A DNA stretch of 44,509 nucleotides from Escherichia phage JSSK01. A program made the translations under genes and the position numbers. How positions within the stretch are numbered: position 1 is the stretch's first letter; every line of letters begins with the position of its first letter. The notes under the pieces were generated by a model. That model did no database searches. It saw only the letters and a list, made by a program, of their open reading frames with translations, and was not told where the DNA came from. Shown here in pieces: positions 3,290-40,038 of the stretch. The DNA is taken from the sequence record OQ442786. One strand, given 5' to 3'.

Positions 3290-4550
3290 TATCACGGCAA
3301 CGGAACCTCAAGGCGCATTTCTTGGGATGCATTGCAAGTTCCCTGCGTTCGTGGCTGGCTTCGGCACCGGGAAATCAGAGGTTATGTGTAACTCCGCGCT
3401 ACTGGACAGCATGGAGGGTGGCAGCGATTCTATCATCGCCATGTATGAGCCTACTTATGACCTGGTACGCCTTATCCTTGCGCCCCGTATGGAAGAGAAG
3501 CTGACGGACTGGGGTATCCGGTACAAATACAATAAGTCCGACAACATAATCTATACGTCATCCGGTCAATTTGGGGATTTTGTCCTGCGTACATTAGATA
3601 ACCCAGCACGAATCGTTGGTTACGAGTCATTTCGTGCAAAAATCGACGAGTTGGATACCCTGAACATGGAACACGCGGAGCACGCATGGAACAAAGTCAT
3701 CGCCCGTAACCGTCAGTTGCCGAGGACGTATAAACCTATTACGCCAAAACCTGCTAATACCGTTTCCGTGTTCACTACGCCGGAAGGATTCCGTTTCGTG
3801 CATGACCGCTGGGTTGTTAAAAAGAATCCTGGTTACGAGATGATTCAGGCGTCCACCCTGTCTAACCCGTTCCTGCCAGAAGATTATGTGCAGTCCTTAC
3901 GAGATACCTACCCCGGGCAGTTGATTGATGCCTACATCAACGGCGAGTTCGTAAACCTCACGGCTGGGACGGTCTACTACGCTTACGACCGCAGGAAAAA
4001 CAGCAGTCGCGAAACAATCAAGCCTGGTGAGACTCTGTATATTGGGCAGGATTTTAACGTAGGCCATATGGCGAGCACAGTCTACGTGCAACGCGGAAAG
4101 GTGTGGCACGCTGTCGCCGAGTTGGTTGATATGTTCGATACGCCGGATGTAGTGCGAGCCATAACGGAGCGCTGGAAAAGTAAGGGCCATTATATCGTTA
4201 TGTACCCGGACGCCAGCGGCAAGAACCGTAAAAGCAACAACGCCAGCACCTCCGACATCGCCCAGCTACAGCAGGCCGGTTTCGAAGTACGCGCTAAATC
4301 GACAAACCCACCGGTTAAAGACCGCGTATCTGCGATGAATAAGGCGCTTGAATCTGGTATGGTCATGATTAACGAACAGGCTTGCCCGGTTACTGCTCGA
4401 TGCCTGGAGCAGCAAGCCTACGACAAGAACGGCGAACCGGATAAATCAGGTGGTGTTGACCACCAGAATGATGGAACCACATACCCTATCGCGTATGAAA
4501 TGCCGATTCGCAAACCAGTTATTAACGTCCCGGTGACTTTCGCACTTTAA
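3279..4550 (+). CDS. terminase large subunit
   Basis: 423 aa; Walker A-like GFGTGKS near N-terminus; GTG start after AAGGTGG SD; immediately upstream of portal. Confidence 0.85.
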   Translation: MNVNITATEPQGAFLGMHCKFPAFVAGFGTGKSEVMCNSALLDSMEGGSDSIIAMYEPTYDLVRLILAPRMEEKLTDWGIRYKYNKSDNIIYTSSGQFGDFVLRTLDNPARIVGYESFRAKIDELDTLNMEHAEHAWNKVIARNRQLPRTYKPITPKPANTVSVFTTPEGFRFVHDRWVVKKNPGYEMIQASTLSNPFLPEDYVQSLRDTYPGQLIDAYINGEFVNLTAGTVYYAYDRRKNSSRETIKPGETLYIGQDFNVGHMASTVYVQRGKVWHAVAELVDMFDTPDVVRAITERWKSKGHYIVMYPDASGKNRKSNNASTSDIAQLQQAGFEVRAKSTNPPVKDRVSAMNKALESGMVMINEQACPVTARCLEQQAYDKNGEPDKSGGVDHQNDGTTYPIAYEMPIRKPVINVPVTFAL

Positions 4551-4562
4551 GAGGATTATTCA

Positions 4563-6044
4563 ATGTTAACTATGAACGGTCAGAATCAGGGTGTTAAGAC
4601 TAAACACCGGGAATGGCTGCATCACTTCAATAAATGGCAGAAGGTACGCCACGCGCTGGAAGGCGACCTTATTCGCTACCTGCGCAACGTCGGGAAGAAC
4701 GAGCCTGACCCGACCTACGCAGCACAGCGCCAGGAAGAATACGAGAATGGCGCTATCTGCTACAACTTCACTAAACGTACCCTGGCGGGGATGGTTGGTA
4801 GCGTCATGCGCAAAGACCCCGAACAAATTATTCCGCCTGAGCTTGAGTACCTGTTACGTAATGCGGATGGTTCTGGTGCCGGGCTGTGGCAGCACGCGCA
4901 GGACACTTTGATGGAGATTGACTCAGTGGGCCGTGGCGGGTTGCTGGTGGACGCCCCGGAGACAGCTGCGGCAACGGCAGCAGAGCAGAACGCAGGATTA
5001 TTAAACCCGGTCATCGCATTCTACACCGCAGAGAACATCATCAACTGGCGATTGACTCGCGTCGGTTCAGTGAACCGCGTAACGATGGTCGTGCTGCGTG
5101 AGGTATGGGAATACTCTGAACCGGGAGCAGAGTTCGAAACAAAGTTCGGTGAGCAGTACCGTGTTCTCGATTTGATTGACGGGCGCTACCGCCAGCGCAT
5201 TTACCGCTTCGACGCTGAAGGTGGCGCTCAGGGCGAAGTAATCGAAATCTTCCCGGAACTCGGCGAACAGTTACGCGGCAAAATCCCGTTCACGTTCATC
5301 GGGGCAAGCAACAACGATGCGACCATCGACGACGCCCCTTTGCTGCCGTTAGCTGAGCTTAATATCGGGCATTTCCGCAACAGCGCGGACAACGAGGAAT
5401 CCAGCTTCGTTGTAGGCCAGCCTACTCTGTTCATCGCCCCTGGCGAGAACATGAGCATGGAACAGTGGAAAGAAGCCAACCCTCACGGCGTGCGCATGGG
5501 GTCGCGTTCGGGTCATAACATAGGTTACGGCGGCAATGCATTTCTTGTTCAGGCAGGAGAGAACAACCTCGCCAAACAGAATATGCTGGATAAAGAGAAT
5601 CAGGCTATCCAGATTGGCGCGCAGCTTATCACCCCGACGCAGCAAATCACCGCTGAATCGGCCCGCCTGCAACGCGGCGCTGACACGTCCGTTATGGCGA
5701 CAATCGCACGTAACGTAAGCATGGCGTATACCGATGCGTTGCGCTGGGCGGCGGCGATGCTAGGGCTACGTGAAGACACAGAAATCGAGTTCAAGCTGAA
5801 TATGGAGTTCTTCCTGCAACCGATGACCGCTCCCGAACGAGCGCAGTGGATGGCGGATATTAACGCTGGCCTGCTACCCGCTACTGCTTATTACGCGGCA
5901 TTGCGCAAGGCCGGTGTAACTGACTGGACAGACGAAGATATTCGGAACGCTATCGAGGATGCGCCGCTGCCGTTAGGTACTGTTGCTCAGGTGGAGGGGG
6001 AGATTCCGCGGTCGGCACAGCAACAAGACGCCGCCCAGCAGTAA
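4563..6044 (+). CDS. portal protein
   Basis: 493-aa ORF directly downstream of terminase large subunit, acidic C-terminus; call by position and size. Confidence 0.8.
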   Translation: MLTMNGQNQGVKTKHREWLHHFNKWQKVRHALEGDLIRYLRNVGKNEPDPTYAAQRQEEYENGAICYNFTKRTLAGMVGSVMRKDPEQIIPPELEYLLRNADGSGAGLWQHAQDTLMEIDSVGRGGLLVDAPETAAATAAEQNAGLLNPVIAFYTAENIINWRLTRVGSVNRVTMVVLREVWEYSEPGAEFETKFGEQYRVLDLIDGRYRQRIYRFDAEGGAQGEVIEIFPELGEQLRGKIPFTFIGASNNDATIDDAPLLPLAELNIGHFRNSADNEESSFVVGQPTLFIAPGENMSMEQWKEANPHGVRMGSRSGHNIGYGGNAFLVQAGENNLAKQNMLDKENQAIQIGAQLITPTQQITAESARLQRGADTSVMATIARNVSMAYTDALRWAAAMLGLREDTEIEFKLNMEFFLQPMTAPERAQWMADINAGLLPATAYYAALRKAGVTDWTDEDIRNAIEDAPLPLGTVAQVEGEIPRSAQQQDAAQQ

Positions 6045-30254: not shown

Positions 30255-30386
30255 TCATTCCAGCACCCATAGATAAATTGCGATGAACATTCCCAATATG
30301 GCAACCATCATTCCGTATTGGCCCTCGTGACAGTAGACACCGGCGGCGAATCCCGCCAGTAACGCGATAATCAGTTTACTTAGCAT
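30255..30386 (-). CDS. hypothetical small membrane peptide (43 aa)
   Basis: not in track; overlaps 3' end of polymerase gene; hydrophobic. Confidence 0.25.
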   Translation of the reverse strand: MLSKLIIALLAGFAAGVYCHEGQYGMMVAILGMFIAIYLWVLE

Positions 30387-32547
30387 AACGTTTTAACTCC
30401 TGACCTTCCGCTACAAGAGGGAACCCTTCGGCCCATTCTGGTAATTCGCACATCAACCGCTCAAGCTCTGCGACATTGTATTCTGGTAAATCCGGTGTCT
30501 CGCAGATAATTTCATCGTGAACATGGAGCACAATCGGGTAGCCGTTTGCCTCTACGTTCAGCAGCGCGTTAGCCAGCAAATCACGGCACAGCGCCTGAGT
30601 GCAGTTTTCCACCAGTTTACCAGAGTAGGTGTACTGGAAGCCCCACTGACGGGTTAACTGGTTCTCCCCCTGGTACTTGATGCGCACGTTAGTAGACACT
30701 TTTCCATCTTCGTCTGTCTCTTTCGACACGCTTAACCCGACACCTGGATAAGACATAACGCGGCCCGACGGCAACGTCATGCGCAACCACCAACCGGCGA
30801 CTTTGTTGCCGTTGTTGTCTGTCTCTACGTTGCGCGAAAACTTAACGCCGCGGGGACCTGCGGTGAACTCTTTACCGGGATTACGGATTGCTGCCATAGC
30901 TGCGTCTTCAATATCGCGCCAGAATTGGACTATTGCAGGATTAGCTTCCCGGTACATGCGCTTTAAAGCGTCACAGGTGCGCCAAACTTTCTTATCAAGG
31001 ATATATGAGGGTCGGTCATCTTTTTCACCAGGACGTGGTGGTCGCTTGGCTTCCTGAATACGCGCCCATTCGTATCCGCGTGCGGTAGCGGCCCAAATAT
31101 GGTCCGGGAATGTACCGTCTAAAGTGTTAGTCATGTCATTCAAATCAAGACCTAAGTTTTTAGCAAACGTGACGAAAGCACCGACGCCCCCCGCGTAGCC
31201 GAGTCCCAGAACCATTGCTTTGGCTATTTGTCTTTGGTCCTTTGTTACGGCTTCATATGCAACATTGAACACCGTTGATGCGAGTTTCTTATACACATCA
31301 ACCCCGTTTACAAATACTTCGATTAAATCGTCTTCACCCGCCAGCCACGCAAGACCGCGGCCTTCGACGTTAGAGTAATCGGCAACGACAAACTTATGCC
31401 CTGCTTCCGGTATGATGCAGCTGCGCACCGTCGATGCCGTTAGTTTGGCTACATCGAAACGGCGGTGCGCACGGCCTTTAAGTAACGCAGAAATGCCTTT
31501 ATCCAGTTCGTCGTCGTGATAGTACCCGCGAGCCAGGTTCTGCGGCTGGAAGCCTTTACCCGCAAATCGTAACGTACGTTTAGCTCCACCATACTGGATG
31601 CAACCGCGACGTCGGTCGTCCGACGAGCGGCCTAACAGCAGCGGGTTATATTTCGTGGACGCTGTTGACGCGGCCCCGAGGCGCATTTCGATAATCATCC
31701 GGGCGTCGTCCGGTAAATCATCATCTGCCAACAGGTCGTTAAGCGTCGACTTCTGTGCATTGTGTATGCGGTGCGCGGGCGCAAGTTCACGCAGAATCGG
31801 AAGGAAGTCTTTACCGGTAAGCGAGCCGCCGTATTTACGTTGAGCTTCTTCCTGTAACTGTGCCTTGTGCTTCTCTACGGCTTCAATCGCGGCTTCCGCC
31901 AGTGCGACGTCAACCTTAAATCCGCGGTCGTTGATTAACTGGTCAAGTTCCAGTACACGGTCTTCGAACTCGGAGTTACCCCAACGCGGCAGCTTATGGA
32001 AGACTTCACGCATCGCAGTGATGTCGCTCACGGCGTACCTGATGAACATCGCCCACTCGTCAGGGTGAGTTTCTGCGGTGTAGCGGCGGATTTTGTAGTT
32101 CTTCGGCGTCGGTTTAGAGAAACGCTTAATCAGAGCCTTGCCGCGTTTATCTTTCGCGTTGTCTGCAGACACGCCCAGCACTTCGCACAGCGCATCAAGA
32201 GAACCCGGCAGCGCGTGACGGAACGCCCAAATCATAGTATCAATGGTGTTACTTACCGGAATATCAAAGTCCCAGCAGTGTTTCATGATTAGGCGATCGA
32301 AAAGTCCACCGTTGTGCCACACCATCCTGATGCGGCTGTTGGGCTTAACAAGGCGGCGCAGTGCGCGGTGTAAATCCCCCGGCATGTCGCTGCCGTCGGT
32401 GCAATCCCATACCTGCACAGGCTCATCGTCAAAAGCATAGGTACAGATTAGCACTTCGGTTGACGGGTGTTCGGCGTAAGCGTAAGAACCGACTTTCTTC
32501 AAATCGGCTTCTGAGAATGTTTCAAAGTCTAAGAACAGGTAACTCAT
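30376..32547 (-). CDS. family A DNA polymerase with 3'-5' exonuclease domain
   Basis: Exo I motif LFLDFETFS; motif A DYSNVEGR; motif B RQIAKAMVLGLGYAGG; motif C HVHDE. Confidence 0.9.
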   Translation of the reverse strand: MSYLFLDFETFSEADLKKVGSYAYAEHPSTEVLICTYAFDDEPVQVWDCTDGSDMPGDLHRALRRLVKPNSRIRMVWHNGGLFDRLIMKHCWDFDIPVSNTIDTMIWAFRHALPGSLDALCEVLGVSADNAKDKRGKALIKRFSKPTPKNYKIRRYTAETHPDEWAMFIRYAVSDITAMREVFHKLPRWGNSEFEDRVLELDQLINDRGFKVDVALAEAAIEAVEKHKAQLQEEAQRKYGGSLTGKDFLPILRELAPAHRIHNAQKSTLNDLLADDDLPDDARMIIEMRLGAASTASTKYNPLLLGRSSDDRRRGCIQYGGAKRTLRFAGKGFQPQNLARGYYHDDELDKGISALLKGRAHRRFDVAKLTASTVRSCIIPEAGHKFVVADYSNVEGRGLAWLAGEDDLIEVFVNGVDVYKKLASTVFNVAYEAVTKDQRQIAKAMVLGLGYAGGVGAFVTFAKNLGLDLNDMTNTLDGTFPDHIWAATARGYEWARIQEAKRPPRPGEKDDRPSYILDKKVWRTCDALKRMYREANPAIVQFWRDIEDAAMAAIRNPGKEFTAGPRGVKFSRNVETDNNGNKVAGWWLRMTLPSGRVMSYPGVGLSVSKETDEDGKVSTNVRIKYQGENQLTRQWGFQYTYSGKLVENCTQALCRDLLANALLNVEANGYPIVLHVHDEIICETPDLPEYNVAELERLMCELPEWAEGFPLVAEGQELKRYAK

Positions 32548-32606: not shown

Positions 32607-33233
32607 TTAGCGGCGGCGACGTTCGCGGCGCGGTGCTTCATCTTCTTCGTCGTCTTCCAGGTCATTGACGCTCGCAGCGACTTTAGAACCGCCGAACGCT
32701 TTGCCTTCACCGACGTACTTAATCGCCAGCAGGTTAACCCCGAGAACTTTATATTTCTGGCTGAACCAGATTTCGACGCTTACGTTAGCGACACAGCCAC
32801 TGTAAACCTGTTCGCCTTCAATCTGTTCGCCGTCTACGTTGAAGTCCTGCTCCACCTGAGTCTCACCTTTTTTAGAGGTTACAATCAGCGGCTGCTTCTG
32901 CGCCTTCGCTTTGAAGTAGAAGCCTTCTGGGAAGTCTTCAAACGGGTTATCACGCTCAGCAATGTCTTTAATCGCGCATTTATCCATGTGCTTACCTTCG
33001 CCGTAGTTGGACTTCATCCATTTCTCGGCAGCAGCTGCGCCTAACGCTTCCTCAACCACAGCGTAAACAGTGTCGTAGAGTGCATCGATTTGAGCGTGGT
33101 CAGGCGGCAGGATGATAGTCGCGCTATACTGGCCTTTAGTGATGGAGCCATCATCGTTTTCACGGTCTTTTTCTCGTTCGAATACGTTAACCCATGCAGT
33201 GTTTACTTTACGCAGATTCAGTTTAATTCCCAT
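32607..33233 (-). CDS. single-stranded DNA-binding protein (gp2.5-like / DUF2815-like, putative)
   Basis: 208 aa, acidic DLEDDEEDE C-terminal tail; between PD-(D/E)XK nuclease and DNA polymerase. Confidence 0.45.
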   Translation of the reverse strand: MGIKLNLRKVNTAWVNVFEREKDRENDDGSITKGQYSATIILPPDHAQIDALYDTVYAVVEEALGAAAAEKWMKSNYGEGKHMDKCAIKDIAERDNPFEDFPEGFYFKAKAQKQPLIVTSKKGETQVEQDFNVDGEQIEGEQVYSGCVANVSVEIWFSQKYKVLGVNLLAIKYVGEGKAFGGSKVAASVNDLEDDEEDEAPRRERRRR

Positions 33234-33320: not shown

Positions 33321-34562
33321 TTATTCTAAATCTTTTTCACTAACCCGATTCCACTCAGGACGTTTGTCGTTTGCCGTTGCGACACATGGCGCTCCTGGCT
33401 TACGGGTAATGAAGTCTTTCAGTTCATCTTCCGGTATGACTTTAACAGCTTCGGTTGGCGTCATGAGCACTTGCTTCATTAGCGCTATGCCATACTTGCC
33501 AGCAACTTTCTCCGCGTCTTTCCACGCACGATTACCTGGGCGTCCTTCTACCAGTTTGTACCCCGGCACTTTCTTACCGGAATGCAGCGCGGCAGCCATA
33601 GCTTTCTCAACCTTGTCGATGTGCTGGCGCAACAACGGCAACTTCTCATACTCAGCTACAAGTTGCTCCGTCGTCAGTTCCAGCGCAAAGTCGTCCTCCA
33701 GTTCTTCCGCCAGTACAGCGTTAACGGTTTTTGTACGCGCGGCGCATTGTTCAGAGAACCGACACCACTGACAACCATCGACAGACGGCTTAAAGTCAGA
33801 TGCTTTCAGGTTCTTCTTGCCGCGGGAATAGGCATCGAGCGCTAACAGTGCTCGTTTTTGTGCAAACTTAGCGAACAGTTCAAGGCCTTCAACCGAGATG
33901 TCCCACTCCGACGCACCGCCAGCGCACGGCTGGAAAATTACCAGACGAACCACGGTGATGTTATAACGCCTCTTGAGTCGGCGATAAACACCGAGAGCGT
34001 AAAGCATAAGCTGCTTGTTTTCTTTCGCTTCGACACGATGCCGTCCTGTTTTCAGGTCGCCGATAATGAGCATATGCTCGTCAGTGTTCGCCAGTTCCTG
34101 AACGGCAACAAGGTCAGCGGTTCCGAACGTCTCAACGCCTTCGTAACCCGGATGCAATACCTCAGTAAGATTTACCCGCATTTCCAGCTTGGCGTAAGTC
34201 GCTACGTCGATAATCGCTTTGCAGTAGTCGGTGTACTTGCGCACCTGCTCAATCATGTCAGCCGTAATCAGTACCGCGCCTTTCATCTGGCTAATTAGCG
34301 CCTTAATCTGGCCTTTACCCTCGTCCAGCACGTAAGCGCCGACTTCACGCTCCAACGGCAACGCAGTGCCGCGTATATAGGCGTTGAGATGGACCTCAGC
34401 TATGGTGTGCATGGCGGTTCCTGATACAGCGGCTTTACCCGACGTGTTAGGGATATCTTTTTCACACGCCAGCGACGCAGCGCATGACAGCCACTTTTTA
34501 GCGCCTGACGGTGACAGTAAGGCGTGTACATCATTATTGCCGCCTCGTTCTTTTAGTTTCAT
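33321..34562 (-). CDS. PD-(D/E)XK exonuclease (DUF2800 / Cas4-RecB-like) with C-terminal Cys cluster
   Basis: start reassigned to ATG 34562 (MKLKE); N-terminal LLSPSGAKKWLSCAASL typical of DUF2800; C-terminal CQWCRFSEQC. Confidence 0.6.
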   Translation of the reverse strand: MKLKERGGNNDVHALLSPSGAKKWLSCAASLACEKDIPNTSGKAAVSGTAMHTIAEVHLNAYIRGTALPLEREVGAYVLDEGKGQIKALISQMKGAVLITADMIEQVRKYTDYCKAIIDVATYAKLEMRVNLTEVLHPGYEGVETFGTADLVAVQELANTDEHMLIIGDLKTGRHRVEAKENKQLMLYALGVYRRLKRRYNITVVRLVIFQPCAGGASEWDISVEGLELFAKFAQKRALLALDAYSRGKKNLKASDFKPSVDGCQWCRFSEQCAARTKTVNAVLAEELEDDFALELTTEQLVAEYEKLPLLRQHIDKVEKAMAAALHSGKKVPGYKLVEGRPGNRAWKDAEKVAGKYGIALMKQVLMTPTEAVKVIPEDELKDFITRKPGAPCVATANDKRPEWNRVSEKDLE

Positions 34563-34859
34563 GCTCTTAAACTCCCACCCCATTTAACTTTACGCGTTTT
34601 GCGCTTGTAGGCGCACGTGTCACCGCTACGGTTGAATATAATCAGCCAAGTCGAGTTGCTTACTCGAAAAGGCTGGTGACATTTAATAAAGAGAAGTCGC
34701 GCTTTACGGTTCGTCATTCTGCAATCTCCACAATACGCGCATTAGTGAAACTGCGTGCGAAGCCGAATGTGTAGAAGATGTACTGGGCTTCGTCCAAACG
34801 TGCGTAGCGGCTGTGTTCCTGGTCTTTACCGTCTATTTCTACAATTATCGCGTACCTTG

Positions 34860-35132
34860 TCATACCCTGCTCTCCCACTGGTCGATTAAATGTCGCGTCT
34901 TATGTTCGCAGTGCATAGCCCACCCATACATCGACTCAAAGACATAAAAGTCTGGCTTGGCGAATGTCGTGCGCTTAATCTGTGACACGTGACGACCTAT
35001 ATCTTTAGGCCGCGGTACTTTGCCTAAGTAAGCCATCTCTTCCATCTGGTGCGCCCCGGACGGCGCACGCAACAGCCATAGTGCCTCTGTGTTGTCCCGC
35101 CTGTCGACGGCGCGGTAGAGTTGGTAAATCAT
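34860..35132 (-). CDS. hypothetical protein (90 aa)
   Basis: track ORF in coupled minus-strand gene chain. Confidence 0.45.
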   Translation of the reverse strand: MIYQLYRAVDRRDNTEALWLLRAPSGAHQMEEMAYLGKVPRPKDIGRHVSQIKRTTFAKPDFYVFESMYGWAMHCEHKTRHLIDQWESRV

Positions 35133-35332
35133 TTCCTTACCCTCGCAGAATTAATCCACGTGAAAACATCGTCAATAGAAAAATCGCCGTCGAAAACCTT
35201 CTCAACTTTGCTGGCCTTCTTGACCGTCGTAGGGTGTTTGTTGTCTACCGCCTGAAATACGTAAACCAAATCATTTTCAGCGACAACGCTGCCAGAAATC
35301 ATAAGACCACTTTTCTTAGCTAAAATAGCCAT
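35129..35332 (-). CDS. hypothetical protein (67 aa)
   Basis: track ORF, ATGA-coupled. Confidence 0.45.
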   Translation of the reverse strand: MAILAKKSGLMISGSVVAENDLVYVFQAVDNKHPTTVKKASKVEKVFDGDFSIDDVFTWINSARVRK

Positions 35333-35343
35333 AATTCCGACCC

Positions 35344-35559
35344 TCAGTAGTACGGCGCAAATTCACCTTTAACGGCGGGACGAATTGTATGTACCGCCGT
35401 TTTATCGGTTGGGTACATGTCCGCCCAATATTCGCCAGCGGCATAGTCAAGAGTCCCGCGCCACGCACCATTCAAAACAAAGAATTGCTGACAACCAACA
35501 TATGAGTCACTTATTTCTACAACTATTTGTTCGTTTATTACTTTGTATACGTTACTCAT
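35344..35559 (-). CDS. hypothetical protein (71 aa)
   Basis: track ORF. Confidence 0.45.
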   Translation of the reverse strand: MSNVYKVINEQIVVEISDSYVGCQQFFVLNGAWRGTLDYAAGEYWADMYPTDKTAVHTIRPAVKGEFAPYY

Positions 35560-35602
35560 TATTACGACCCTCAGTTAAAGCGGCCCGAAGGCCGCCAGAT
35601 AA

Positions 35603-36127
35603 TTATTCTTCTTCGAAATACTTGTTCTTGATTGCTGTCAAGCGTTCCAGGTATTCAGCCAGGTCTTCGTCTTTAATCGCTGCAATCTTCATTTTCTTAC
35701 CAGTGAACTCTTCCAGCAGTTCATCAGAATCGTCGCACGCGGCATCGCTAGGACCTTCATTAATTGCATCGTCGATGGCCTGAATCTGGTCACGAAGAGA
35801 CTGGTAATCGACCTCTTCTTTCTCTTCTTCCGGTTCTGGCGTAGGCTCCTCTACTTTAGGTTTACGCGGCTTGCGTTTCGGCTTCTCTTCTTCTGCTGGT
35901 TTGGTGTCAACGACGTCTTCACCTTCGACCTCAATGTCTCTTACCGCGTCGAACGCTTCTTTAACCACATGAGCTACCGTCTTTTCTTCGACCGTGATTT
36001 CTTTTGTTGCAACAGTAGGCTTTATTGTTGCGGATTCAGCAATGACTACTTGTTTCGAACTATTCGCGGCAATCAGTTCATGTGCAACTACGAAACGTTC
36101 CAGCAATACTAAGAATTTCTCTAACAT
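35603..36127 (-). CDS. highly acidic protein (174 aa), unknown function
   Basis: long Glu/Asp-rich stretches (EVEGEDVVD..., PEPEEEKEEVD...). Confidence 0.5.
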   Translation of the reverse strand: MLEKFLVLLERFVVAHELIAANSSKQVVIAESATIKPTVATKEITVEEKTVAHVVKEAFDAVRDIEVEGEDVVDTKPAEEEKPKRKPRKPKVEEPTPEPEEEKEEVDYQSLRDQIQAIDDAINEGPSDAACDDSDELLEEFTGKKMKIAAIKDEDLAEYLERLTAIKNKYFEEE

Positions 36128-36151
36128 TTGTTTCTCTCCTGTTTGTGTAAG

Positions 36152-36379
36152 TTACTCACCGTCGCCTTCAGTAAGGCTATCGTCTATTAGTTCAAATTTA
36201 CCGTTTGAGTGTTGAATAGCTTCTTGCCCGCAATGGTCACAGACAACAAGTTTATCGAACCCATCAAACTCATCCCCTACTACGCAAGAAAGTACAAATT
36301 TATGTTTTGTGCACACTTCTTGCGGAGCGCCGAAAATTGCTCGAAAACCTTTAGCTATGGCCCCAGTGATTGTGTTCAT
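36152..36379 (-). CDS. zinc-ribbon-like small protein
   Basis: CxxC pairs (CTKH...C and CDHCG). Confidence 0.5.
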   Translation of the reverse strand: MNTITGAIAKGFRAIFGAPQEVCTKHKFVLSCVVGDEFDGFDKLVVCDHCGQEAIQHSNGKFELIDDSLTEGDGE

Positions 36380-36407
36380 ATCTGCCCCTCTCGTTTGGTA
36401 TGGGCTA

Positions 36408-36436
36408 ACTATAATAGCGAACTATTCACATGTCAA
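36408..36436 (-). promoter_or_regulatory. replication-module promoter cassette copy 3 (TTGACA-17-TATAGT)
   Basis: plus-strand text TAACTATAATAGCGAACTATTCACATGTCAATGG. Confidence 0.55.
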
Positions 36437-36500
36437 TGGGCTTTTCTAAAATAATTAATATGGTACTATTCACATATCAACTGACTAAGGAGTAACTGAC

Positions 36501-36716
36501 ATGCAACCATCTGAACTAGGCATCCGTGTAGAGCAACGCCGTAAAGAACTCGGTATCTCCCAGCGCCGTCTGGCTGTTCTGGCCGGCGTTTCCCAGGGCG
36601 CGATTAACCAGCTTGCACTCGGGGTAACTCAGGACGTACGCCCGGCAACGCTGTTTAAACTGGCGGAAGTGCTGGAAGTAGACGCCAAGTGGCTGGCGCT
36701 AGGTGAAGGGGCGTAA
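36501..36716 (+). CDS. XRE-family HTH transcriptional regulator (Cro/CI-like)
   Basis: ISQRRLAVLAGVSQGAINQL is a classic HTH_XRE signature; AAGGAG SD; stop codon lies in terminator loop. Confidence 0.7.
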   Translation: MQPSELGIRVEQRRKELGISQRRLAVLAGVSQGAINQLALGVTQDVRPATLFKLAEVLEVDAKWLALGEGA

Positions 36717-36731
36717 CGCCCCTTTCTTTTT
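36708..36731 (+). terminator. rho-independent terminator (GGGGCG-TAA-CGCCCC, TTTCTTTTT)
   Basis: read from sequence. Confidence 0.6.
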
Positions 36732-36733
36732 AC

Positions 36734-38956
36734 CTATTCCAAATCCTCCTCTGTCACCACCAGCATCTCATTTGGTTCGTATAGTGTCTTCGGCCTTAAT
36801 CTATCACCTATTCTTTCGGGTATACGATATGTTCTCGGTACTACTTCGCCGTTAGCATCGCAACCAAGCATTAGTTCTCCATCTTTCAACATTTTATCAA
36901 GATGGGTGTTAGTCACAGAGAAGTCACCGGAACGAGCCACTATCTGCTGCTGAGTAAAACCGCGACCTGTGTCATCTGACTGTTGCAGGTCTTCCAGTGC
37001 CGAAAGTATTGACTCCTTCCTTACTTCATCCCTGCCGCGTTTAACTTCTTCCTTTACTTTTTGCTTACCTTCTTTCGTCAACCCTTCTTCCCGCTCTTTC
37101 TCCTCGTCAGTTTTGAACGGCTCGAAACCCCACGGCATCAACACAAGCGCCTTGTGTGGTTCAGGCAGGTCCAGGTTTACGATTGTGCCGTATTCCTCTG
37201 TGCTACCCAGGAACTCAACCGCTCGGTATTCTTTAGGCGGCGGCGCTTCACGGAACTGTACCGACTCCAGCACCATGCCAACCGTCTTCTGCTGAGGCCC
37301 GTGCTTGAATTTCGAGTGATATACGTTTATCTGACGGTCGGTTGCACGTTCGATTGTCAGTTCCACGTCAACACCCGCATACAGCGCCCCACTGCCGCGT
37401 GCTTTCTTTCCACCCTTCGGCGTATGGTGGACAACGCCTACTGCGGCTTTAGTTGCATCGCGTACTTCTTTCAGAATGGCGATAACTTTACCCATGCCGA
37501 TTGCTGTTGATGAACTGTTCTCGTCGAACTTATCAATCGTCAGTGCCAGGGTCTGGTTAAGGGTGTCGAACGCAACCATGCCAATTGGCTCGTCGCCAGC
37601 AGTTTCGCGCATTAACTTAATCAGGCTTTTAAGTTTGCCGACTTCGCCCATATCGATGACGTGTACATAATCTTTACCTTCCCCGCCATATTTAGCCGCT
37701 AGTGCATCAATACGGGTGCGTGTAGCTGCGCCACCCTCACCATCAATATAGAAATGGTGGCAACGCTGGGTATCCGCCCCCGCAAACCTGTACCCGGCGG
37801 CGCTGAGGCACATCATCCCCAGCGTATAGAACGATTTGTACGTGCCAGATTCCCCGACGATATCCCAGATACAATCCGACGGCATGTACCCCTCAACGAC
37901 GAAATCAGCCTTTACCGGCTCCGGTAACTCGTCCTCCTCTGAGTCCTCGTCGTCTTCCAGGTCGTCGAGGCTGCAAGTTACTGGGTCCTCGTTCTCTGTG
38001 CGGTGTAGTTCTTCAATCTCTTCTTCCGGTAAATCAGGCAGAGCCGCACGAATGCTGTTAATGCTGATAGGTTGCTTATCTATGTTAAGCTCGTCGGGTA
38101 GGCCACACATACGCAGGGCCAAATGCTGCCTACGGTTAAGCTCGGTGCAAGCGCCGTTGTTTGTATGCTGGCAGACAAAGCGCACTTCTTTACCGTCGAG
38201 CATTATGCTGGTGGAGCCCTTGCCTGTATGCAGATGTTCGTTAGGGCATGGCACTTCGTACCCGCGCCCGGAAGATAAAGCGTCAAGGCCAAGCTCGGCT
38301 TCGCAGAAGTGTGCTATATCCGCGTTAAGCCCATGCTCATCAGCGGCAAGTGTTTTAGCCTCACGCTTACGCAACCCCATCTCTTCGGCTTTCTTGATGT
38401 ACCGCTCAGCACGGATAACACGCCCTTCTGTAACCGTTATCTTCGACTCTTTATGCGGCAGGTAGATAAGGCGGTTGCCGTCTTCTGTGCAGTGGTCACG
38501 CAACGCTTCGTCTATTTCTAACTCTGCACAAATAGCACGTTGCACCATCCACGCGTCGTTAGAGTTAAACGGCGTGCGAGCTGGAACCAGAACGCGGAAA
38601 GCGTAATCTCCGTTTTTACATGCGTGCTGATGCGATGCCGTTGTGTGCAGAATATTGAAGAACGGCGCGTTCTTGAATTTGCGTGTCAGGTCGCGGTACT
38701 GAGTACGGTTGAGATGGTCGAAATCGAACTTAACCACACTGTCTTCCAGGATAGCGTTTTTACGGCGACCACCAACAGGCGCAATAGCTTTCTGTTTAAT
38801 CTTGGCAGCGTCGTACTCTTCCTTAGTCCATGACGGGTCCACGGATAAACGCTTCGATGTATCGCAGACATACTCGACAAACTGCTCCAGCGGCATTTCA
38901 CGCGCTACAGGGTTTTTATCGAATGTGTTACGCAGCGTTGCAAAAACAATATTCAT
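36734..38956 (-). CDS. DNA primase/helicase (AEP-type primase-like N-terminal region + RecA-like ATPase)
   Basis: Walker A GESGTYKS, Walker B-like MVAFDTLNQ, sensor VVHHTPKGG; N-terminal DxD (FDFDHL) and His-rich block suggestive of AEP primase. Confidence 0.75.
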   Translation of the reverse strand: MNIVFATLRNTFDKNPVAREMPLEQFVEYVCDTSKRLSVDPSWTKEEYDAAKIKQKAIAPVGGRRKNAILEDSVVKFDFDHLNRTQYRDLTRKFKNAPFFNILHTTASHQHACKNGDYAFRVLVPARTPFNSNDAWMVQRAICAELEIDEALRDHCTEDGNRLIYLPHKESKITVTEGRVIRAERYIKKAEEMGLRKREAKTLAADEHGLNADIAHFCEAELGLDALSSGRGYEVPCPNEHLHTGKGSTSIMLDGKEVRFVCQHTNNGACTELNRRQHLALRMCGLPDELNIDKQPISINSIRAALPDLPEEEIEELHRTENEDPVTCSLDDLEDDEDSEEDELPEPVKADFVVEGYMPSDCIWDIVGESGTYKSFYTLGMMCLSAAGYRFAGADTQRCHHFYIDGEGGAATRTRIDALAAKYGGEGKDYVHVIDMGEVGKLKSLIKLMRETAGDEPIGMVAFDTLNQTLALTIDKFDENSSSTAIGMGKVIAILKEVRDATKAAVGVVHHTPKGGKKARGSGALYAGVDVELTIERATDRQINVYHSKFKHGPQQKTVGMVLESVQFREAPPPKEYRAVEFLGSTEEYGTIVNLDLPEPHKALVLMPWGFEPFKTDEEKEREEGLTKEGKQKVKEEVKRGRDEVRKESILSALEDLQQSDDTGRGFTQQQIVARSGDFSVTNTHLDKMLKDGELMLGCDANGEVVPRTYRIPERIGDRLRPKTLYEPNEMLVVTEEDLE

Positions 38957-39150
38957 TTCTTTTTCTCCGCACGTTCTAAGGCTTCCTGCATACGGCGCAT
39001 TGCGCGGTTCATCTTTACCGGCGCGAAGAAATCGGCGCCGTGTTTCTGTCGGCGTAGCTGTGGAACTATTAACTTTGTCATTGTATAATCCTTATGCTTA
39101 CTTTGATGGTTTGTACTTTAGCCCCGACGTTCTAGCGTTGGGGTTTCTTT

Positions 39151-39441
39151 TTACCGTTTAGCCAACCCTTCCAGCAAATTTTTATACTCTTCAAAATATT
39201 CCTCGACCAAATCATCGCCGAAATAGAAGTCGATATACTCGAGATTATCTCTTACGTTAAGCGATGCCGACATGGTGCTTAGTTGGCGTAAGCTAATTAG
39301 CTTCATTTCTGTTTCTACGCAGAAAGGCCGGTAGGTATCAAGATGGCAAGAGATATTGAAGCATAAAGCGAACTCTCCTGCCACGGAGTGAACCATATAC
39401 ACTTCGTTTTCTGCTTTATTGTGGAAAATTACGCCTTTCAT
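39151..39441 (-). CDS. hypothetical protein (96 aa)
   Basis: track ORF, ATGA-coupled to upstream HTH gene. Confidence 0.45.
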   Translation of the reverse strand: MKGVIFHNKAENEVYMVHSVAGEFALCFNISCHLDTYRPFCVETEMKLISLRQLSTMSASLNVRDNLEYIDFYFGDDLVEEYFEEYKNLLEGLAKR

Positions 39442-39620
39442 TTCACGTTCTCCTTAATCCATGCTTCGACTTTATTACGGTCAAATGTTCCCGGTAAACG
39501 GCGGCCCATAATCTTAATACAGCAGTCAGGGAATTTGCCGCTGCGCAACCAGTTATTAATTGTCTGACGTGTCACCCCGATACGTTCAGCTACTTCATTC
39601 TGCGTCATATAATGCGACAT
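39438..39620 (-). CDS. small HTH DNA-binding protein (AlpA/excisionase-like fold)
   Basis: start reassigned to ATG 39620 (AGGAGAT SD); MTQNEVAERIGVTRQTINNWLRSGKFP is HTH-like; first gene of minus-strand operon. Confidence 0.55.
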   Translation of the reverse strand: MSHYMTQNEVAERIGVTRQTINNWLRSGKFPDCCIKIMGRRLPGTFDRNKVEAWIKENVK

Positions 39621-39651
39621 TTTTATATCTCCTGTTTGTTTGGTGAAACTG

Positions 39652-39680
39652 AGTATAGGATAGCGGGAATGTAAAAGCAA
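39652..39680 (-). promoter_or_regulatory. candidate leftward promoter TTGCTT-17-TATACT
   Basis: read on minus strand upstream of HTH gene. Confidence 0.4.
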
Positions 39681-39717
39681 CCAATCTCTGTAATATTTAA
39701 TCTTTACAAAAATGTTA

Positions 39718-39747
39718 TTGAAAGTTCTTGACACATGTTTGTATAAT
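39718..39747 (+). promoter_or_regulatory. candidate rightward promoter TTGAAA-18-TATAAT
   Basis: perfect -10 hexamer; adjacent TTGACA is only 8 bp from the -10. Confidence 0.4.
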
Positions 39748-39753
39748 GGTTTT

Positions 39754-39973
39754 GGGACTTGTATATATTACGGAGTTGACGAACCCTCCCCGAGGGATTC
39801 GTCAACCCCTCCCAGACAGCTGAGATGCTTGCCTTGGGGTTTAAGGATAAGTGTATCTAAATCTCATTTAAAGAAGTAACCCGCTGAAATATCTACTGTT
39901 TCTTAATGTGCCGTAGATTCGCAACCGTAAAAATGTAACGATTATTGGGCAGGCTTAAGCCTGCCCTTTAGTT
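39754..39973 (+). ncRNA. candidate ~215-nt non-coding transcript ending at intrinsic terminator
   Basis: no ORF longer than ~15 codons; imperfect palindrome GTTGACGAA...TTCGTCAAC; CCCTCCCCGA boxes. Confidence 0.25.
39947..39973 (+). terminator. rho-independent terminator (GGGCAGGCTT/AAGCCTGCCC perfect inverted repeat, TTTAGTT)
   Basis: 10-bp perfect inverted repeat followed by T-rich run. Confidence 0.6.
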
Positions 39974-40038
39974 ACCAAGTAATAAGAATAAAGGCACAAC
40001 CCTCCCCGAAGAATCACAACGGCAACGTAACTATTCTC

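What the first reader, a model, noticed from the sequence alone, without database searches (positions are those of the whole stretch)
35603..36127. Highly acidic 174-aa protein (candidate DNA mimic or protein-interaction hub)
Long Glu/Asp-rich stretches in a replication-module protein with no recognisable enzymatic motif. Strongly acidic phage proteins are often DNA mimics that inhibit restriction enzymes or other host nucleic-acid-binding proteins. This is inference from composition only.
Basis: inference. Interest (0 to 1): 0.4.

Follow-up and report, generated by a model that had tools for sequence, protein, structure and literature searches.

The report
Acidic tethered adaptor of phage replication module
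This acidic 174-residue phage protein is probably not a compact DNA mimic but a "helix, floppy linker, small helical domain" accessory protein that always sits in front of a widespread phage nuclease, DNA-binding protein and polymerase gene set, and its acidity goes with a reversed (basic) tail on the phage's single-stranded-DNA-binding protein.

Summary
The ORF is real: minus strand 35603..36127, 174 aa, pI 4.5, 26% Asp+Glu (highest in the window), under purifying selection. The window is a Kagunavirus genome. The protein is phrog_3127, function unknown. Its frequent label "13.88 kDa late protein" is inherited from a 123-aa phage MB78 entry and has no support here.

It has three parts: a very conserved N-terminal amphipathic helix (1-23), an ~84-residue disordered mixed-charge linker with a conserved KPKRKPR patch, and a confidently predicted acidic three-helix domain (108-171). 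No DNA-mimic family or fold matches.

The gene lies directly upstream of the DUF2800 nuclease / Gp2.5-type SSB / PolA cassette in 76 of 76 assessable related loci and in every distant member with enough contig. PHROG bridges and hhalign (81-88%) link it to non-acidic counterparts at the same position in phages of Staphylococcus, Streptococcus, Bacteroides, Vibrio and others.

Acidity is specific to this clade and coincides with SSBs ending in Arg/Lys clusters (75/75) instead of the canonical acidic-aromatic tip (0/91).

Best reading (inferred): a tethered adaptor of the replication-recombination module, probably binding the SSB tail. The anti-restriction DNA-mimic reading is not supported; a Gam-like host-nuclease inhibitor remains a minority rival.

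The parts
35603..36127 (-). Target gene, stop codon included: 174 aa, phrog_3127
   Evidence: ORF list; phrog_3127 E = 2.1e-66 over the full length; purifying selection in every region.
36059..36127 (-). Residues 1-23, N-terminal amphipathic helix MLEKFLVLLERFVVAHELIAANS; the most conserved module
   Evidence: 22 of 23 residues identical to Cornellvirus-type orthologs that are ~35% identical by tblastn (45-47% over aligned columns). 8-10 synonymous changes against 1 conservative E-to-D change, so the constraint acts on the protein. 3.17 bits per site. dN/dS 0.19. AF2 helix 2-23, pLDDT ~82. In heptad register, 5 of 7 positions are hydrophobic, with a polar stripe of E3/E10/E17 and K4/R11 (read from the sequence).
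35807..36058 (-). Residues 24-107, disordered mixed-charge linker of variable length
   Evidence: pLDDT ~45-55 with no secondary structure. Indel-rich in alignments. 0.86 bits per site for residues 24-66. dN/dS 0.52 for residues 24-66. Fraction of charged residues 0.46; 8 Pro.
35897..35929 (-). Residues 67-77, conserved VEGEDVVDTKP motif within the linker
   Evidence: Conserved across enterobacterial members; dN/dS 0.22 for residues 67-91.
35855..35884 (-). Residues 82-91, conserved basic patch KPKRKPRKPK
   Evidence: Invariant or nearly invariant K82 P83 K84 R85 K86 P87 R88 K91 in A2. Basic R/K/G-rich equivalents occur at the same place in distant members.
35606..35806 (-). Residues 108-174, acidic three-helix C-terminal domain (helices 108-124, 128-142, 153-171), net charge -11
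   Evidence: AF2 pLDDT 86-94 with the 90-sequence alignment. 2.40 bits per site; R112 is the most conserved residue of the protein. Conserved acidic positions D128, D132, D135, E136, E139 on helix 2 and D153-E154-D155 at the start of helix 3. Duplicated in some members. hhalign 81-88% to the C-domains of non-acidic counterparts.
36134..36140 (-). Ribosome-binding site AGGAGAG
   Evidence: Upstream sequence.
36408..36436 (-). Near-consensus sigma-70-type promoter (TTGACA-17-TATAGT, 11 of 12) driving the 75-aa ORF, the target and probably the downstream replication genes
   Evidence: Promoter scan. This is a consensus match only, not shown to be functional.
36412..36480 (.). Two 25-nt direct repeats (36412-36436 and 36456-36480, 84% identical), each overlapping a promoter-like site; probable operators of the divergent HTH regulator
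   Evidence: Repeat search; promoter scan. The operator role is inferred.
36501..36716 (+). Divergent HTH (Cro/CI-type) regulator
   Evidence: Pfam HTH_3 E = 2.3e-12.
33321..34583 (-). DUF2800 / Cas4-like PD-(D/E)XK exonuclease; the tightest conserved neighbour of the target
   Evidence: Pfam DUF2800 E = 1.5e-67. The family lies upstream in 76 of 76 assessable loci and in distant members.
32607..33233 (-). Enc34 / Gp2.5-type SSB and annealing protein
   Evidence: Pfam Enc34_ssDNA-bd E = 8.3e-16; phrog_112.
32610..32633 (-). SSB C-terminal tip PRRERRRR: a basic cluster in place of the canonical acidic-aromatic tip; candidate ligand of the acidic C-domain
   Evidence: Translation. A basic tip is present in 75 of 75 SSBs of family-positive loci, against 0 of 14 Chi-like and 0 of 77 Staphylococcus phage SSBs. 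The interaction itself is inferred.
30376..32547 (-). Family A DNA polymerase of the module
   Evidence: Pfam DNA_pol_A; phrog_17.
36734..38956 (-). Replicative helicase-primase (AAA_25); alternative candidate partner of the N-helix
   Evidence: phrog_3228, 1062 bits; Pfam AAA_25. Adjacent to the family in distant loci.

Best explanation
The gene encodes a non-enzymatic, tethered adaptor that belongs to the phage's replication-recombination module (DUF2800 exonuclease, Gp2.5-type SSB/annealing protein, family A polymerase, helicase-primase).

**Shown**
- It has three parts: a strongly constrained N-terminal amphipathic helix whose hydrophobic arc is too wide to stay exposed to solvent; an ~84-residue disordered polyampholyte linker with a conserved basic patch; and a small acidic three-helix domain.
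- It is the first or second gene of the operon that continues into the nuclease, SSB and polymerase. This position holds across genera and, through remote homologs, across phages of Gram-negative, Firmicutes and Bacteroidota hosts.
- Strong acidity is confined to the phrog_3127 clade. It coincides with SSBs whose C-terminal tip is Arg/Lys-rich, in place of the canonical acidic-aromatic tip.

**Inferred**
- The N-helix anchors the protein, either by homo-oligomerisation (coiled-coil-like) or by docking into a phage-encoded partner.
- The linker acts as a flexible tether.
- The C-terminal domain binds the C-terminal tail of the cognate SSB electrostatically: an acidic domain with a basic tail in this clade, and a near-neutral domain with an acidic tail elsewhere.
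- The protein would thereby couple SSB-coated single-stranded DNA to the nuclease, polymerase or helicase, or regulate SSB.
For: **Architecture.** AF2 with 90 sequences gives helix 2-23 at pLDDT ~82, residues 24-107 at ~50, and a three-helix domain 108-171 at 86-94. Conservation by module: N-helix 3.17, C-domain 2.40, linker 0.86 bits per site. dN/dS: 0.19, 0.35 and 0.52 for the same three parts. The N-helix constraint acts on the protein: 8-10 synonymous changes against 1 conservative change.

**Synteny.**
- The family lies on the same strand 0.3-1.8 kb upstream of DUF2800 in 76 of 76 assessable IMG/VR loci. The four loci without it have a contig end less than 750 bp upstream of the nuclease.
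- The same position holds in distant members at 25-36% identity: L004, L006, L007, L008, L010. It also holds in the outermost members P0288 and P0296, in Dhillonvirus Bas85 and in Serratia phage Tsm2.

**Superfamily.**
- 12 of 12 remote DUF2800 modules sampled have a small protein with the same layout 0-1 genes upstream of the nuclease.
- PHROG bridges: AJG77_58 hits phrog_18562 at 3e-10, phrog_3127 at 3e-5 and phrog_408 at 3e-5. P0294 hits phrog_7721 at 1.2e-5 and phrog_3127 at 1.7e-5. P0295 hits phrog_18562 at 7.8e-9 and phrog_3127 at 9.6e-6.
- hhalign probability 81% (P = 1.2e-5) for full-length profiles and 88% for C-domain profiles.

**Charge co-variation.**
- A basic SSB tip is present in 75 of 75 family-positive loci (38 distinct tails), against 0 of 14 Chi-like and 0 of 77 Staphylococcus phage SSBs.
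- In L006 an SSB of a different family (phrog_9002) also ends in GGRERRARR.
- C-domain net charge is -7 to -20 in the clade against -10 to +3 elsewhere (p = 7e-4). SSB tail net charge is 0 to +6 against -8 to 0 (p = 3e-4). Spearman rho = -0.59, p = 0.005.

**Partner is phage-encoded, not host.** Kagunavirus and Dhillonvirus both infect E. coli, yet their N-helices differ at 14 of 23 positions.

**Other.** The family is absent from 185,579 representative bacterial genomes apart from one probable contaminant scaffold. The duf2800-gp2.5-polA module is recognised in the literature, without this fourth gene (PMC8093625).
Against: - No interaction has been observed or modelled.
- The family-positive lineages form one clade, so the SSB-tail association may reflect very few evolutionary events. 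The statistics are not phylogenetically corrected.
- Charge complementarity is imperfect: the Chi-like and Aeromonas counterparts carry acidic C-terminal tails although their SSB tails are also acidic.
- Conserved gene order in phages also arises from co-transcription and co-inheritance without any physical interaction.
- The three-helix bundle is a generic fold and carries no functional information.
- L007 shows no SSB within the 8.5 kb available.
Confidence: 0.55

Rival explanations
1. Gam-like or gp5.9-like inhibitor of a host nuclease. The acidic C-terminal domain would occupy the DNA-binding site of RecBCD or a similar host exonuclease, protecting the linear phage DNA ends and recombination intermediates made by the adjacent exonuclease and annealing protein.
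For: - Positional analogy, from established knowledge: lambda gam-bet-exo; T7 gene 5.9 lies immediately upstream of exonuclease gene 6.
- The gene always precedes an exonuclease plus SSAP pair.
- There is a conserved acidic stripe on helix 2 with i, i+3/4 spacing.
- The gene sits behind a strong sigma-70-type promoter at the head of the operon.
Against: - No sequence or fold similarity to Gam, gp5.9 or Abc2, although RecBCD-inhibitor complexes are in the PDB.
- Remote homologs at the same position are not acidic. They also occur in phages of Firmicutes and Bacteroidota, whose end-processing nucleases differ.
- The N-helix varies with phage lineage, not with host.
- A conserved basic patch and an 84-residue disordered tether are not expected in a mimic.
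Confidence: 0.13
2. Ocr/ArdA-type anti-restriction DNA mimic. The acidic protein would imitate double-stranded DNA and block type I or other restriction or defence enzymes.
For: - It has the highest acidic fraction in the window, and pI 4.5.
- It lies early in its operon behind a strong promoter.
- Composition-based precedent, from established knowledge: Ocr, ArdA, Arn.
Against: - No Pfam, PADLOC or PDB sequence hit.
- No DNA-mimic fold in the fold searches.
- Nearly half of the chain is disordered, and 14% of residues are basic.
- It is universal and strictly syntenic inside a replication module, not patchily distributed.
- Homologs elsewhere are non-acidic.
Confidence: 0.05
3. Self-assembling scaffold or DNA-associated organiser. 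Oligomerisation through the N-helix, together with the blocky polyampholyte linker and its AT-hook-like basic patch, would concentrate replication proteins and DNA (a replication-factory organiser or initiator accessory) without one specific partner.
For: - The N-helix is hydrophobic at 5 of 7 heptad positions. Counterparts in other phages have heptad-like N-helices, and one is annotated 'coil containing protein'.
- The linker has a fraction of charged residues of 0.46, with segregated acidic and basic blocks.
- Some members carry a duplicated C-domain, which raises valency.
- No separate initiator is identifiable in the module.
Against: - There are no iterons or tandem repeats in or next to the gene.
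- No DNA-binding domain is detected.
- The C-domain is too well conserved for a purely generic scaffold.
- This reading overlaps with the best explanation; it does not exclude it.
Confidence: 0.15
4. Late or structural (head/packaging) protein, as implied by the propagated label '13.88 kDa late protein' and by two genome papers.
For: - The label is inherited from UniProt Q9T1Z8 of Salmonella phage MB78.
- Two papers list the gene under structural or packaging proteins.
Against: - Those papers give no experimental basis.
- The gene sits in the replication operon behind a sigma-70-type promoter, far from the structural genes.
- The mass does not fit: 19.7 kDa here.
- The architecture is not that of a virion protein.
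Confidence: 0.03

Closest known systems
phrog_3127 / '13.88 kDa late protein' (UniProt Q9T1Z8, Salmonella phage MB78)
   Same: True family membership: full-length HMM match, E = 2.1e-66. A 100% identical protein is already deposited for Escherichia phage JSSK01. Q9T1Z8 is 68% identical.
   Different: Nothing is known about the family's function. The name describes a 123-aa, 13.88 kDa entry, whereas this protein is 174 aa and 19.7 kDa. The 'late' attribute is unsupported here.
Small proteins preceding DUF2800 in other duf2800-gp2.5-polA modules (phrog_408, 18562, 7721, 5053, 3709; for example Staphylococcus phage 47 ORF032 and Chi-like YSD1_4)
   Same: Same position. Same layout: N-helix, low-complexity linker, C-terminal helical domain. 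Linked by PHROG bridges and by hhalign at 81-88%.
   Different: Those proteins are near-neutral (pI 5.0-7.8) and are paired with SSBs that have canonical acidic-aromatic tails. This clade is strongly acidic and is paired with basic-tipped SSBs. All of them are functionally uncharacterised.
Proteins that bind SSB C-terminal tails (E. coli Pol III chi subunit; T7 gp5 and gp4 binding the gp2.5 tail)
   Same: Proposed way of working: a replisome component recognises the charged C-terminal tail of the SSB, so coupling SSB-coated DNA to enzymes (established knowledge for T7 and E. coli).
   Different: No homology. The polarity is reversed here: a basic SSB tip and an acidic reader. The interaction is inferred from co-variation only.
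Lambda Red-beta C-terminal domain bound to lambda exonuclease (PDB 6m9k)
   Different: The match is no better than to dozens of unrelated or designed three-helix bundles. Here the domain is a separate, tethered protein and not part of the annealing protein.
Lambda Gam / T7 gp5.9 (host RecBCD inhibitors) and T7 Ocr / ArdA (anti-restriction DNA mimics)
   Same: Acidic, non-enzymatic, early phage proteins. Gam and gp5.9 also lie next to the phage exonuclease gene.
   Different: No sequence or fold similarity. Half of the chain is disordered. It has a conserved basic patch. It is core-syntenic, and its homologs elsewhere are non-acidic.
Bacillus YabA-type hubs (oligomerising N-terminal helix, flexible linker, C-terminal binding domain)
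   Same: The overall design of a multivalent, tethered replication hub (resemblance recalled from established knowledge).
   Different: No homology. YabA's C-domain binds zinc. Oligomerisation of the present N-helix is untested.

Membership tests
phrog_3127 | Full-length match to the family profile | tested here: met
   E = 2.1e-66, residues 1-174 against profile positions 1-177 of 178. All 29 diverse members of A3 match.
Pre-DUF2800 small-protein superfamily (phrog_3127/18562/408/7721/5053/3709) | Gene located 0-2 ORFs upstream of a DUF2800 nuclease, on the same strand | tested here: met
   Window; 76 of 76 assessable loci; distant members; 12 of 12 remote modules.
Pre-DUF2800 small-protein superfamily (phrog_3127/18562/408/7721/5053/3709) | Shared C-terminal helical domain detectable by profile comparison | tested here: met
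   hhalign 81% (P = 1.2e-5) and 88.5% (P = 2.8e-6). PHROG bridges at 1e-5 to 1e-10. Earlier tests with low-diversity profiles and single sequences were negative, so support is moderate, not strong.
Pre-DUF2800 small-protein superfamily (phrog_3127/18562/408/7721/5053/3709) | N-terminal helix, low-complexity linker and C-domain layout | tested here: met
   AF2 for the target. For the counterparts this was read from the sequences only.
Ocr (PF08684) / ArdA (PF07275) anti-restriction DNA mimics | Sequence membership | tested here: not met
   No Pfam, PADLOC, NCBIfam or PDB sequence hit.
Ocr (PF08684) / ArdA (PF07275) anti-restriction DNA mimics | Compact, fully folded body presenting a DNA-like array of carboxylates | tested here: not met
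   84 of 174 residues have pLDDT ~50 and no secondary structure. Only a 64-residue three-helix bundle is folded. No mimic appears among the fold hits.
Ocr (PF08684) / ArdA (PF07275) anti-restriction DNA mimics | Binds and inhibits restriction-modification enzymes | not testable with these tools
   Needs restriction-protection or binding assays.
Lambda Gam / T7 gp5.9 host-nuclease inhibitors | Sequence or fold similarity | tested here: not met
   No hits.
Lambda Gam / T7 gp5.9 host-nuclease inhibitors | Gene adjacent to the phage exonuclease / annealing protein genes | tested here: met
   Always upstream of DUF2800 and the Gp2.5-type SSB. This is a positional analogy only.
Lambda Gam / T7 gp5.9 host-nuclease inhibitors | Inhibits RecBCD | not testable with these tools
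   Needs biochemical or genetic assays.
SSB-tail-binding replisome adaptors (functional class) | Physical binding to the SSB C-terminal tail | not testable with these tools
   No multimer prediction or experiment was available.
SSB-tail-binding replisome adaptors (functional class) | Co-variation of the reader domain with the SSB tail | tested here: inconclusive
   Basic tips in 75 of 75 against 0 of 91. Charge differences at p = 3e-4 to 7e-4; rho = -0.59. A second SSB family shows the same tip. The lineages are not independent, and the Chi-like and Aeromonas pairs do not fit a simple complementarity.
Late / structural virion protein (inherited label) | Location in the late structural operon, or presence in virions | tested here: not met
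   The gene lies in the replication operon behind a sigma-70-type promoter. The papers using the label give no data. Virion proteomics was not available.

The most novel reading that the evidence does not exclude
In this phage clade the acidic-aromatic 'tip' that normally ends an SSB and recruits replisome partners has been moved onto a separate protein, while the SSB tip has become basic. That separate protein is a tethered, probably oligomeric polypeptide: helix, 84-residue polyampholyte linker, acidic three-helix domain ending in KYFEEE.

More broadly, a small helix-linker-domain protein would be an overlooked fourth universal component of the duf2800-gp2.5-polA module in phages of Gram-negative, Firmicutes and Bacteroidota hosts. 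It would act as the multivalent hub that couples SSB-coated DNA to the nuclease and polymerase.
Probability: 0.25. Interest if true: 0.65.

Novelty: new variant of a known kind. Interest (0 to 1): 0.45.

Why it matters
The duf2800-gp2.5-polA cassette is one of the most widespread replication-recombination modules in tailed phages. It is present in 1,514 of 50,697 phage records, including many therapeutic candidates against Salmonella and E. coli. It has been described as a three-gene unit.

A conserved fourth, non-enzymatic partner would matter in three ways:
- It would change how the module is modelled.
- It gives a concrete, cheap hypothesis to test: binding of the acidic domain to the basic SSB tail, with a natural charge-swap control in other phages.
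- It is a natural example of co-evolving charge reversal between an SSB tail and its reader.

In practice, the analysis also corrects a propagated mis-annotation. The '13.88 kDa late protein' is listed as a head or packaging protein in published genome papers. In at least one curated record the gene is called on the wrong strand.

Tried and rejected
1. **Lambda-O-style origin inside the linker-coding DNA.** No iterons or tandem repeats in the gene. The cumulative GC-skew minimum lies at about 39-40 kb, not here.
2. **Overlapping RNA element.** Rfam finds nothing above threshold in 34800-36900.
3. **DNA-level explanation of the invariant N-terminus.** Rejected: synonymous sites vary freely.
4. 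**Portable N-helix fused to other C-termini (P0279, P0292).** Both lie on single scaffolds of 515-619 bp and are probably chimeras, so they were discarded.
5. **Early tests for homology with positional counterparts.** Direct hhalign against low-diversity Chi-like and Staphylococcus profiles gave 2.3% and 0.3%. phmmer and hmmsearch against shuffled decoys scored no better than chance. These negatives were later outweighed by the PHROG bridges and a diverse outgroup profile, but they limit confidence.
6. **First AF2 run with 28 sequences.** Mean pLDDT 56.6; not used for fold search.
7. **Fold searches.** Only generic three-helix bundles were returned. The viral library returned only family members. 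The afdb50 library was unavailable.
8. **Expression timing from the Kagunavirus K1B4 transcriptome.** The ortholog is vB_Eco_K1B4_003, but the paper gives no class for that gene.
9. **Original MB78 literature.** Not in the library. My recollection of an MB78 'late protein by frameshifting' paper could not be checked and is not used.
10. **Prophage or host-range information from bacterial genomes.** One hit only, a probable contaminant scaffold.
12. **Pfam scan of all 29 diverse members.** Only scattered low-complexity noise.
Full report
**1. What is there.**

The window is a complete-looking 44.5-kb genome of a Kagunavirus (Guernseyvirinae). It is 99% identical to Escherichia phage vB_EcoS_XY1 over the region examined.

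The finding's coordinates are exact. They delimit an ATG...TAA ORF on the minus strand (35603..36127) encoding 174 aa, with an AGGAGAG ribosome-binding site 6 nt upstream of the ATG.

The protein has 46 Asp+Glu (26.4%), 25 Lys+Arg, net charge -21, pI 4.51 and a mass of 19.7 kDa. Among 64 non-overlapping ORFs of the window it has the highest acidic fraction and the second most negative charge per residue, but only the fifth lowest pI. It is best described as a polyampholyte with an acidic bias.

It has no match in Pfam, NCBIfam, PADLOC or the sequences of solved structures. It is a full-length member of phrog_3127, function unknown.

**2. It is a real, conserved gene with three modules.**

There are 2,290 homologs at E <= 0.001 in the 5.8-billion-protein collection. 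They collapse to only 59 clusters at 50% identity among 1.84 billion representatives. All are 30-212 aa with no fused known domain.

Alignments and AlphaFold2 with 90 sequences (mean pLDDT 69.9) show three parts:
- **N-terminal helix, residues 2-23 (pLDDT ~82).** It is identical at 22 of 23 positions in Cornellvirus-type orthologs that are only ~35% identical by tblastn (45-47% over aligned columns).
- **Linker, residues 24-107 (pLDDT ~50, no secondary structure).** Its length varies and it is rich in indels. It contains a conserved VEGED..TKP motif and a conserved basic patch, KPKRKPRKPK.
- **Three-helix domain, residues 108-171 (pLDDT 86-94), net charge -11.**

Conservation is 3.17, 0.86 and 2.40 bits per site for the helix, the 24-66 linker and the C-domain. 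dN/dS is 0.19, 0.52 and 0.35 for the same parts (dS is near saturation, so the values are approximate).

The invariance of the N-terminus is a protein-level constraint. In its 23 codons there are 8-10 synonymous differences and one conservative E-to-D change between the window and the distant orthologs.

Written in heptad register, five of seven positions of the helix are hydrophobic. A narrow polar stripe is formed by E3/E10/E17 and K4/R11 (read from the sequence). Such a helix must be buried, either in a homo-oligomer or in a partner.

In the C-domain, the best-conserved residues are the hydrophobic core, R112, an acidic stripe on helix 2 (D128, D132, D135, E136, E139) and D153-E154-D155 at the start of helix 3.

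**3. Fold searches give no functional lead and no DNA mimic.**

The low-rmsd matches cover only the C-domain, and pTM is 0.39. So the N-helix is probably not docked on the C-domain in the model. This is a weak inference, because the coordinates could not be inspected.

**4. Genomic context.**

In the window, a near-consensus sigma-70-type promoter (TTGACA-17-TATAGT, at 36436->36408, minus strand) faces a divergent promoter for an HTH regulator (36501..36716). Two 25-nt direct repeats overlap the promoter-like sites.

Downstream of the promoter, on the minus strand, come:
- a 75-aa ORF;
- the target;
- five small ORFs;
- the DUF2800 (Cas4-like PD-(D/E)XK) nuclease;
- an Enc34/Gp2.5-type SSB and annealing protein;
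- a family A polymerase.

The helicase-primase lies on the other side of the regulator.

This position is conserved to a striking degree:
- Among 80 IMG/VR loci found with a DUF2800 profile (97% down to 44% identity), 76 carry the family on the same strand 0.3-1.8 kb upstream of the nuclease. In the other four the contig ends less than 750 bp upstream of the nuclease.
- Members at 25-36% identity keep the position: L004, L006, L007, L008, L010.
- So do the outermost detectable members, P0288 and P0296.
- So do Dhillonvirus Bas85 and Serratia phage Tsm2.

The family is absent from 185,579 representative bacterial genomes, apart from one scaffold that is probably contamination. It is therefore a gene of virulent phages.

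**5. A wider superfamily.**

DUF2800 nucleases occur in 1,514 phage records. The duf2800-gp2.5-polA module is recognised in phages of Gram-positive and Gram-negative hosts (PMC8093625), but no fourth gene has been described.

I sampled twelve remote modules:
- Chi-like phages YSD1 and RcAqua;
- Staphylococcus phage 47;
- a Pasteurella phage;
- E. coli phage 611R5;
- phages of Bacteroides, Paenibacillus, Vibrio, Streptococcus, Aeromonas and Acutalibacter;
- phage DSL-LC05.

Each has a protein of 107-300 aa located 0-1 genes upstream of DUF2800. Each shows the same layout: an N-terminal helix, a low-complexity linker and a C-terminal helical domain.

Early homology tests were negative. hhalign against low-diversity profiles gave 2.3% and 0.3%, and single-sequence scores were no better than shuffled decoys.

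Later evidence is supportive:
- Peripheral family members and counterparts match several of the same PHROGs at once. AJG77_58 hits phrog_18562 at 3e-10, phrog_3127 at 3e-5 and phrog_408 at 3e-5. P0294 hits phrog_7721 at 1.2e-5 and phrog_3127 at 1.7e-5. P0295 hits phrog_18562 at 7.8e-9 and phrog_3127 at 9.6e-6. P0291 hits all four.
- hhalign of the family against an 11-sequence outgroup profile gives 81% probability (P = 1.2e-5, 59 columns spanning the C-domain), and 88.5% for C-domain-only profiles.

I regard remote homology of the C-domain as moderately well supported.

**6. The acidity is clade-specific and tracks the SSB tail.**

The counterparts outside phrog_3127 are not acidic: pI 5.0-7.8 and whole-protein net charge -11 to +1.

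In every family-positive lineage the SSB ends in acidic blocks followed by an Arg/Lys cluster. Examples are ...DDEEDEAPRRERRRR in the window and PRRKRRS, PRRRRR, RRRRREEDDE, KAKAKKKNKE, PRKRRRR and RRSRRRR elsewhere. This holds for 75 of 75 complete SSBs, with 38 distinct tails, in the DUF2800 loci.

Homologous SSBs of the non-acidic subfamilies keep the canonical acidic plus aromatic/hydrophobic tip (...DDEDFL...WEDEV...DDEDF). A basic tip occurs in 0 of 14 Chi-like and 0 of 77 Staphylococcus phage SSBs.

In L006 the SSB belongs to a different family (phrog_9002), yet it also ends in GGRERRARR.

Over 21 lineages:
- C-domain net charge is -7 to -20 in the clade against -10 to +3 elsewhere (Mann-Whitney p = 7e-4).
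- SSB tail net charge is 0 to +6 against -8 to 0 (p = 3e-4).
- Spearman rho is -0.59 (p = 0.005).

These tests ignore phylogeny. The acidic clade may represent very few independent events. The Chi-like and Aeromonas pairs, where both tails are acidic, do not fit simple complementarity.

**7. Interpretation.**

*Shown.* The gene encodes a conserved, non-enzymatic, three-part protein. It is a core, syntenic member of the replication-recombination module. Its acidity is a lineage-specific trait that coincides with charge inversion of the SSB tip.

*Inferred.* It is a tethered adaptor:
- The N-helix anchors it by oligomerisation or by docking to a phage-encoded partner. The helix differs at 14 of 23 positions between Kagunavirus and Dhillonvirus, which share E. 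coli as host. That argues against a conserved host target.
- The linker is a flexible tether.
- The C-domain reads the SSB tail electrostatically. This is analogous in principle to the way T7 gp5 and gp4 or the E. coli chi subunit read acidic SSB tails (established knowledge), but with reversed polarity.

I put about 0.55 on the adaptor reading, and about half of that on the SSB tail as the specific ligand.

*Rivals.*
- A Gam-like or gp5.9-like host-nuclease inhibitor, suggested by the position next to an exonuclease/annealing pair (0.13).
- A self-assembling organiser without one specific partner (0.15; this overlaps with the best explanation).
- An Ocr/ArdA-type anti-restriction mimic (0.05).
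- A late or structural protein (0.03).

**8. The label.**

'13.88 kDa late protein' comes from UniProt Q9T1Z8 of Salmonella phage MB78, a 123-aa entry 68% identical to the target. It has been copied to many records. Two genome papers then list the gene among structural or head-and-packaging proteins without giving any data.

The location, the promoter and the architecture all contradict that placement. The only relevant transcriptome (Kagunavirus K1B4; the ortholog is vB_Eco_K1B4_003) does not report a temporal class for this gene.

**9. Verdict.**

The anti-restriction DNA-mimic interpretation is not supported. The 'interaction hub' alternative fits.

The sequence itself is already deposited and the family is catalogued, so the protein as such is not new. 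Three things appear to be new: the recognition of a conserved fourth component of a very common phage module; its three-part anatomy; and the charge-swap relationship with the SSB tail. Together they give a specific and inexpensive hypothesis to test. Interest is moderate (0.45).

Noticed in passing
L091 (PQ850624.1, Escherichia phage RuthEpting_Bas85) 4216-4779, + strand of the locus: The family HMM matches the + strand ORF (E = 8.9e-45). The deposited record instead annotates Bas85_0051 on the opposite strand at 4243-4734, and its translation looks like antisense junk (FFLAFTFRRCFFRLRRCFF...). This is probably a wrong-strand gene call.
   Followed up: partly
window 35580-35595: A GC-rich hairpin GCGGCC-CGAA-GGCCGC (a UUCG tetraloop on the transcribed minus strand) lies 8 nt after the target's stop codon and before the next gene's start at 35559. 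The T-run is weak, so the scan did not call it a terminator. It may be an attenuator or an RNA-stabilising element that sets the target's expression apart from the downstream genes.
   Followed up: no
window 36412-36436 and 36456-36480: Two 25-nt direct repeats (TAATAGCGAACTATTCACATGTCAA and TAATATGGTACTATTCACATATCAA), spaced 44 nt start to start, each overlap a minus-strand promoter-like site in the divergent regulatory region. They are probably operators of the adjacent HTH regulator.
   Followed up: partly
window 36152-36379 (minus strand): A 75-aa ORF lies between the promoter and the target (phrog_32657, unknown function). It has four Cys (C23, C32, C47, C50...CDHC...), so it may be a small zinc ribbon. 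It is present in XY1-type genomes, but no CDS is called between the ortholog and the HTH gene in phage K1B4, where the gap is only 126 nt.
   Followed up: no
window 32610-32680 (minus strand), C-terminus of the SSB: The Gp2.5/Enc34-type SSB lacks the canonical acidic-aromatic C-terminal tip. It ends ...NDLEDDEEDEAPRRERRRR. Longer relatives carry several alternating acidic and Arg-rich blocks. This is an unusual SSB tail in its own right.
   Followed up: yes
window 33321-34583 (minus strand), DUF2800 nuclease: The alignment of six orthologs shows invariant Cys at positions 34, 271, 274 and 280. This is the spacing typical of the Cas4/AddB-type [4Fe-4S] cluster.
   Followed up: no
window 36705-36726: A strong hairpin (GAAGGGGCG-TAA-CGCCCCTTC) with T-runs lies between the convergent ends of the HTH gene and the helicase-primase gene. 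It is probably a bidirectional terminator and is the site of a sub-threshold Rfam hit.
   Followed up: no
P0156, P0243, P0247, P0248 (family members of 208-219 aa): Some members carry a tandem duplication of the C-terminal three-helix domain. Dhillonvirus-type members have a ~27-aa tandem duplication in the linker.
   Followed up: partly
CP088689.1 (PLSDB 'plasmid', 44,086 bp, E. coli from blood); also NZ_JACVEL010000022.1 (Taishania pollutisoli scaffold): A Kagunavirus-like genome is deposited as a non-mobilisable E. coli plasmid. An enterobacterial-phage-like 19-kb scaffold sits in a Bacteroidota genome assembly. Both are probably phage carry-over or contamination, not true replicons or prophages.
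   Followed up: no
window ~39000-40000: This stretch has the lowest GC content (41.5%) and the minimum of cumulative GC skew in the window. It is a better candidate for a replication origin or strand-switch region than the target gene.
   Followed up: no
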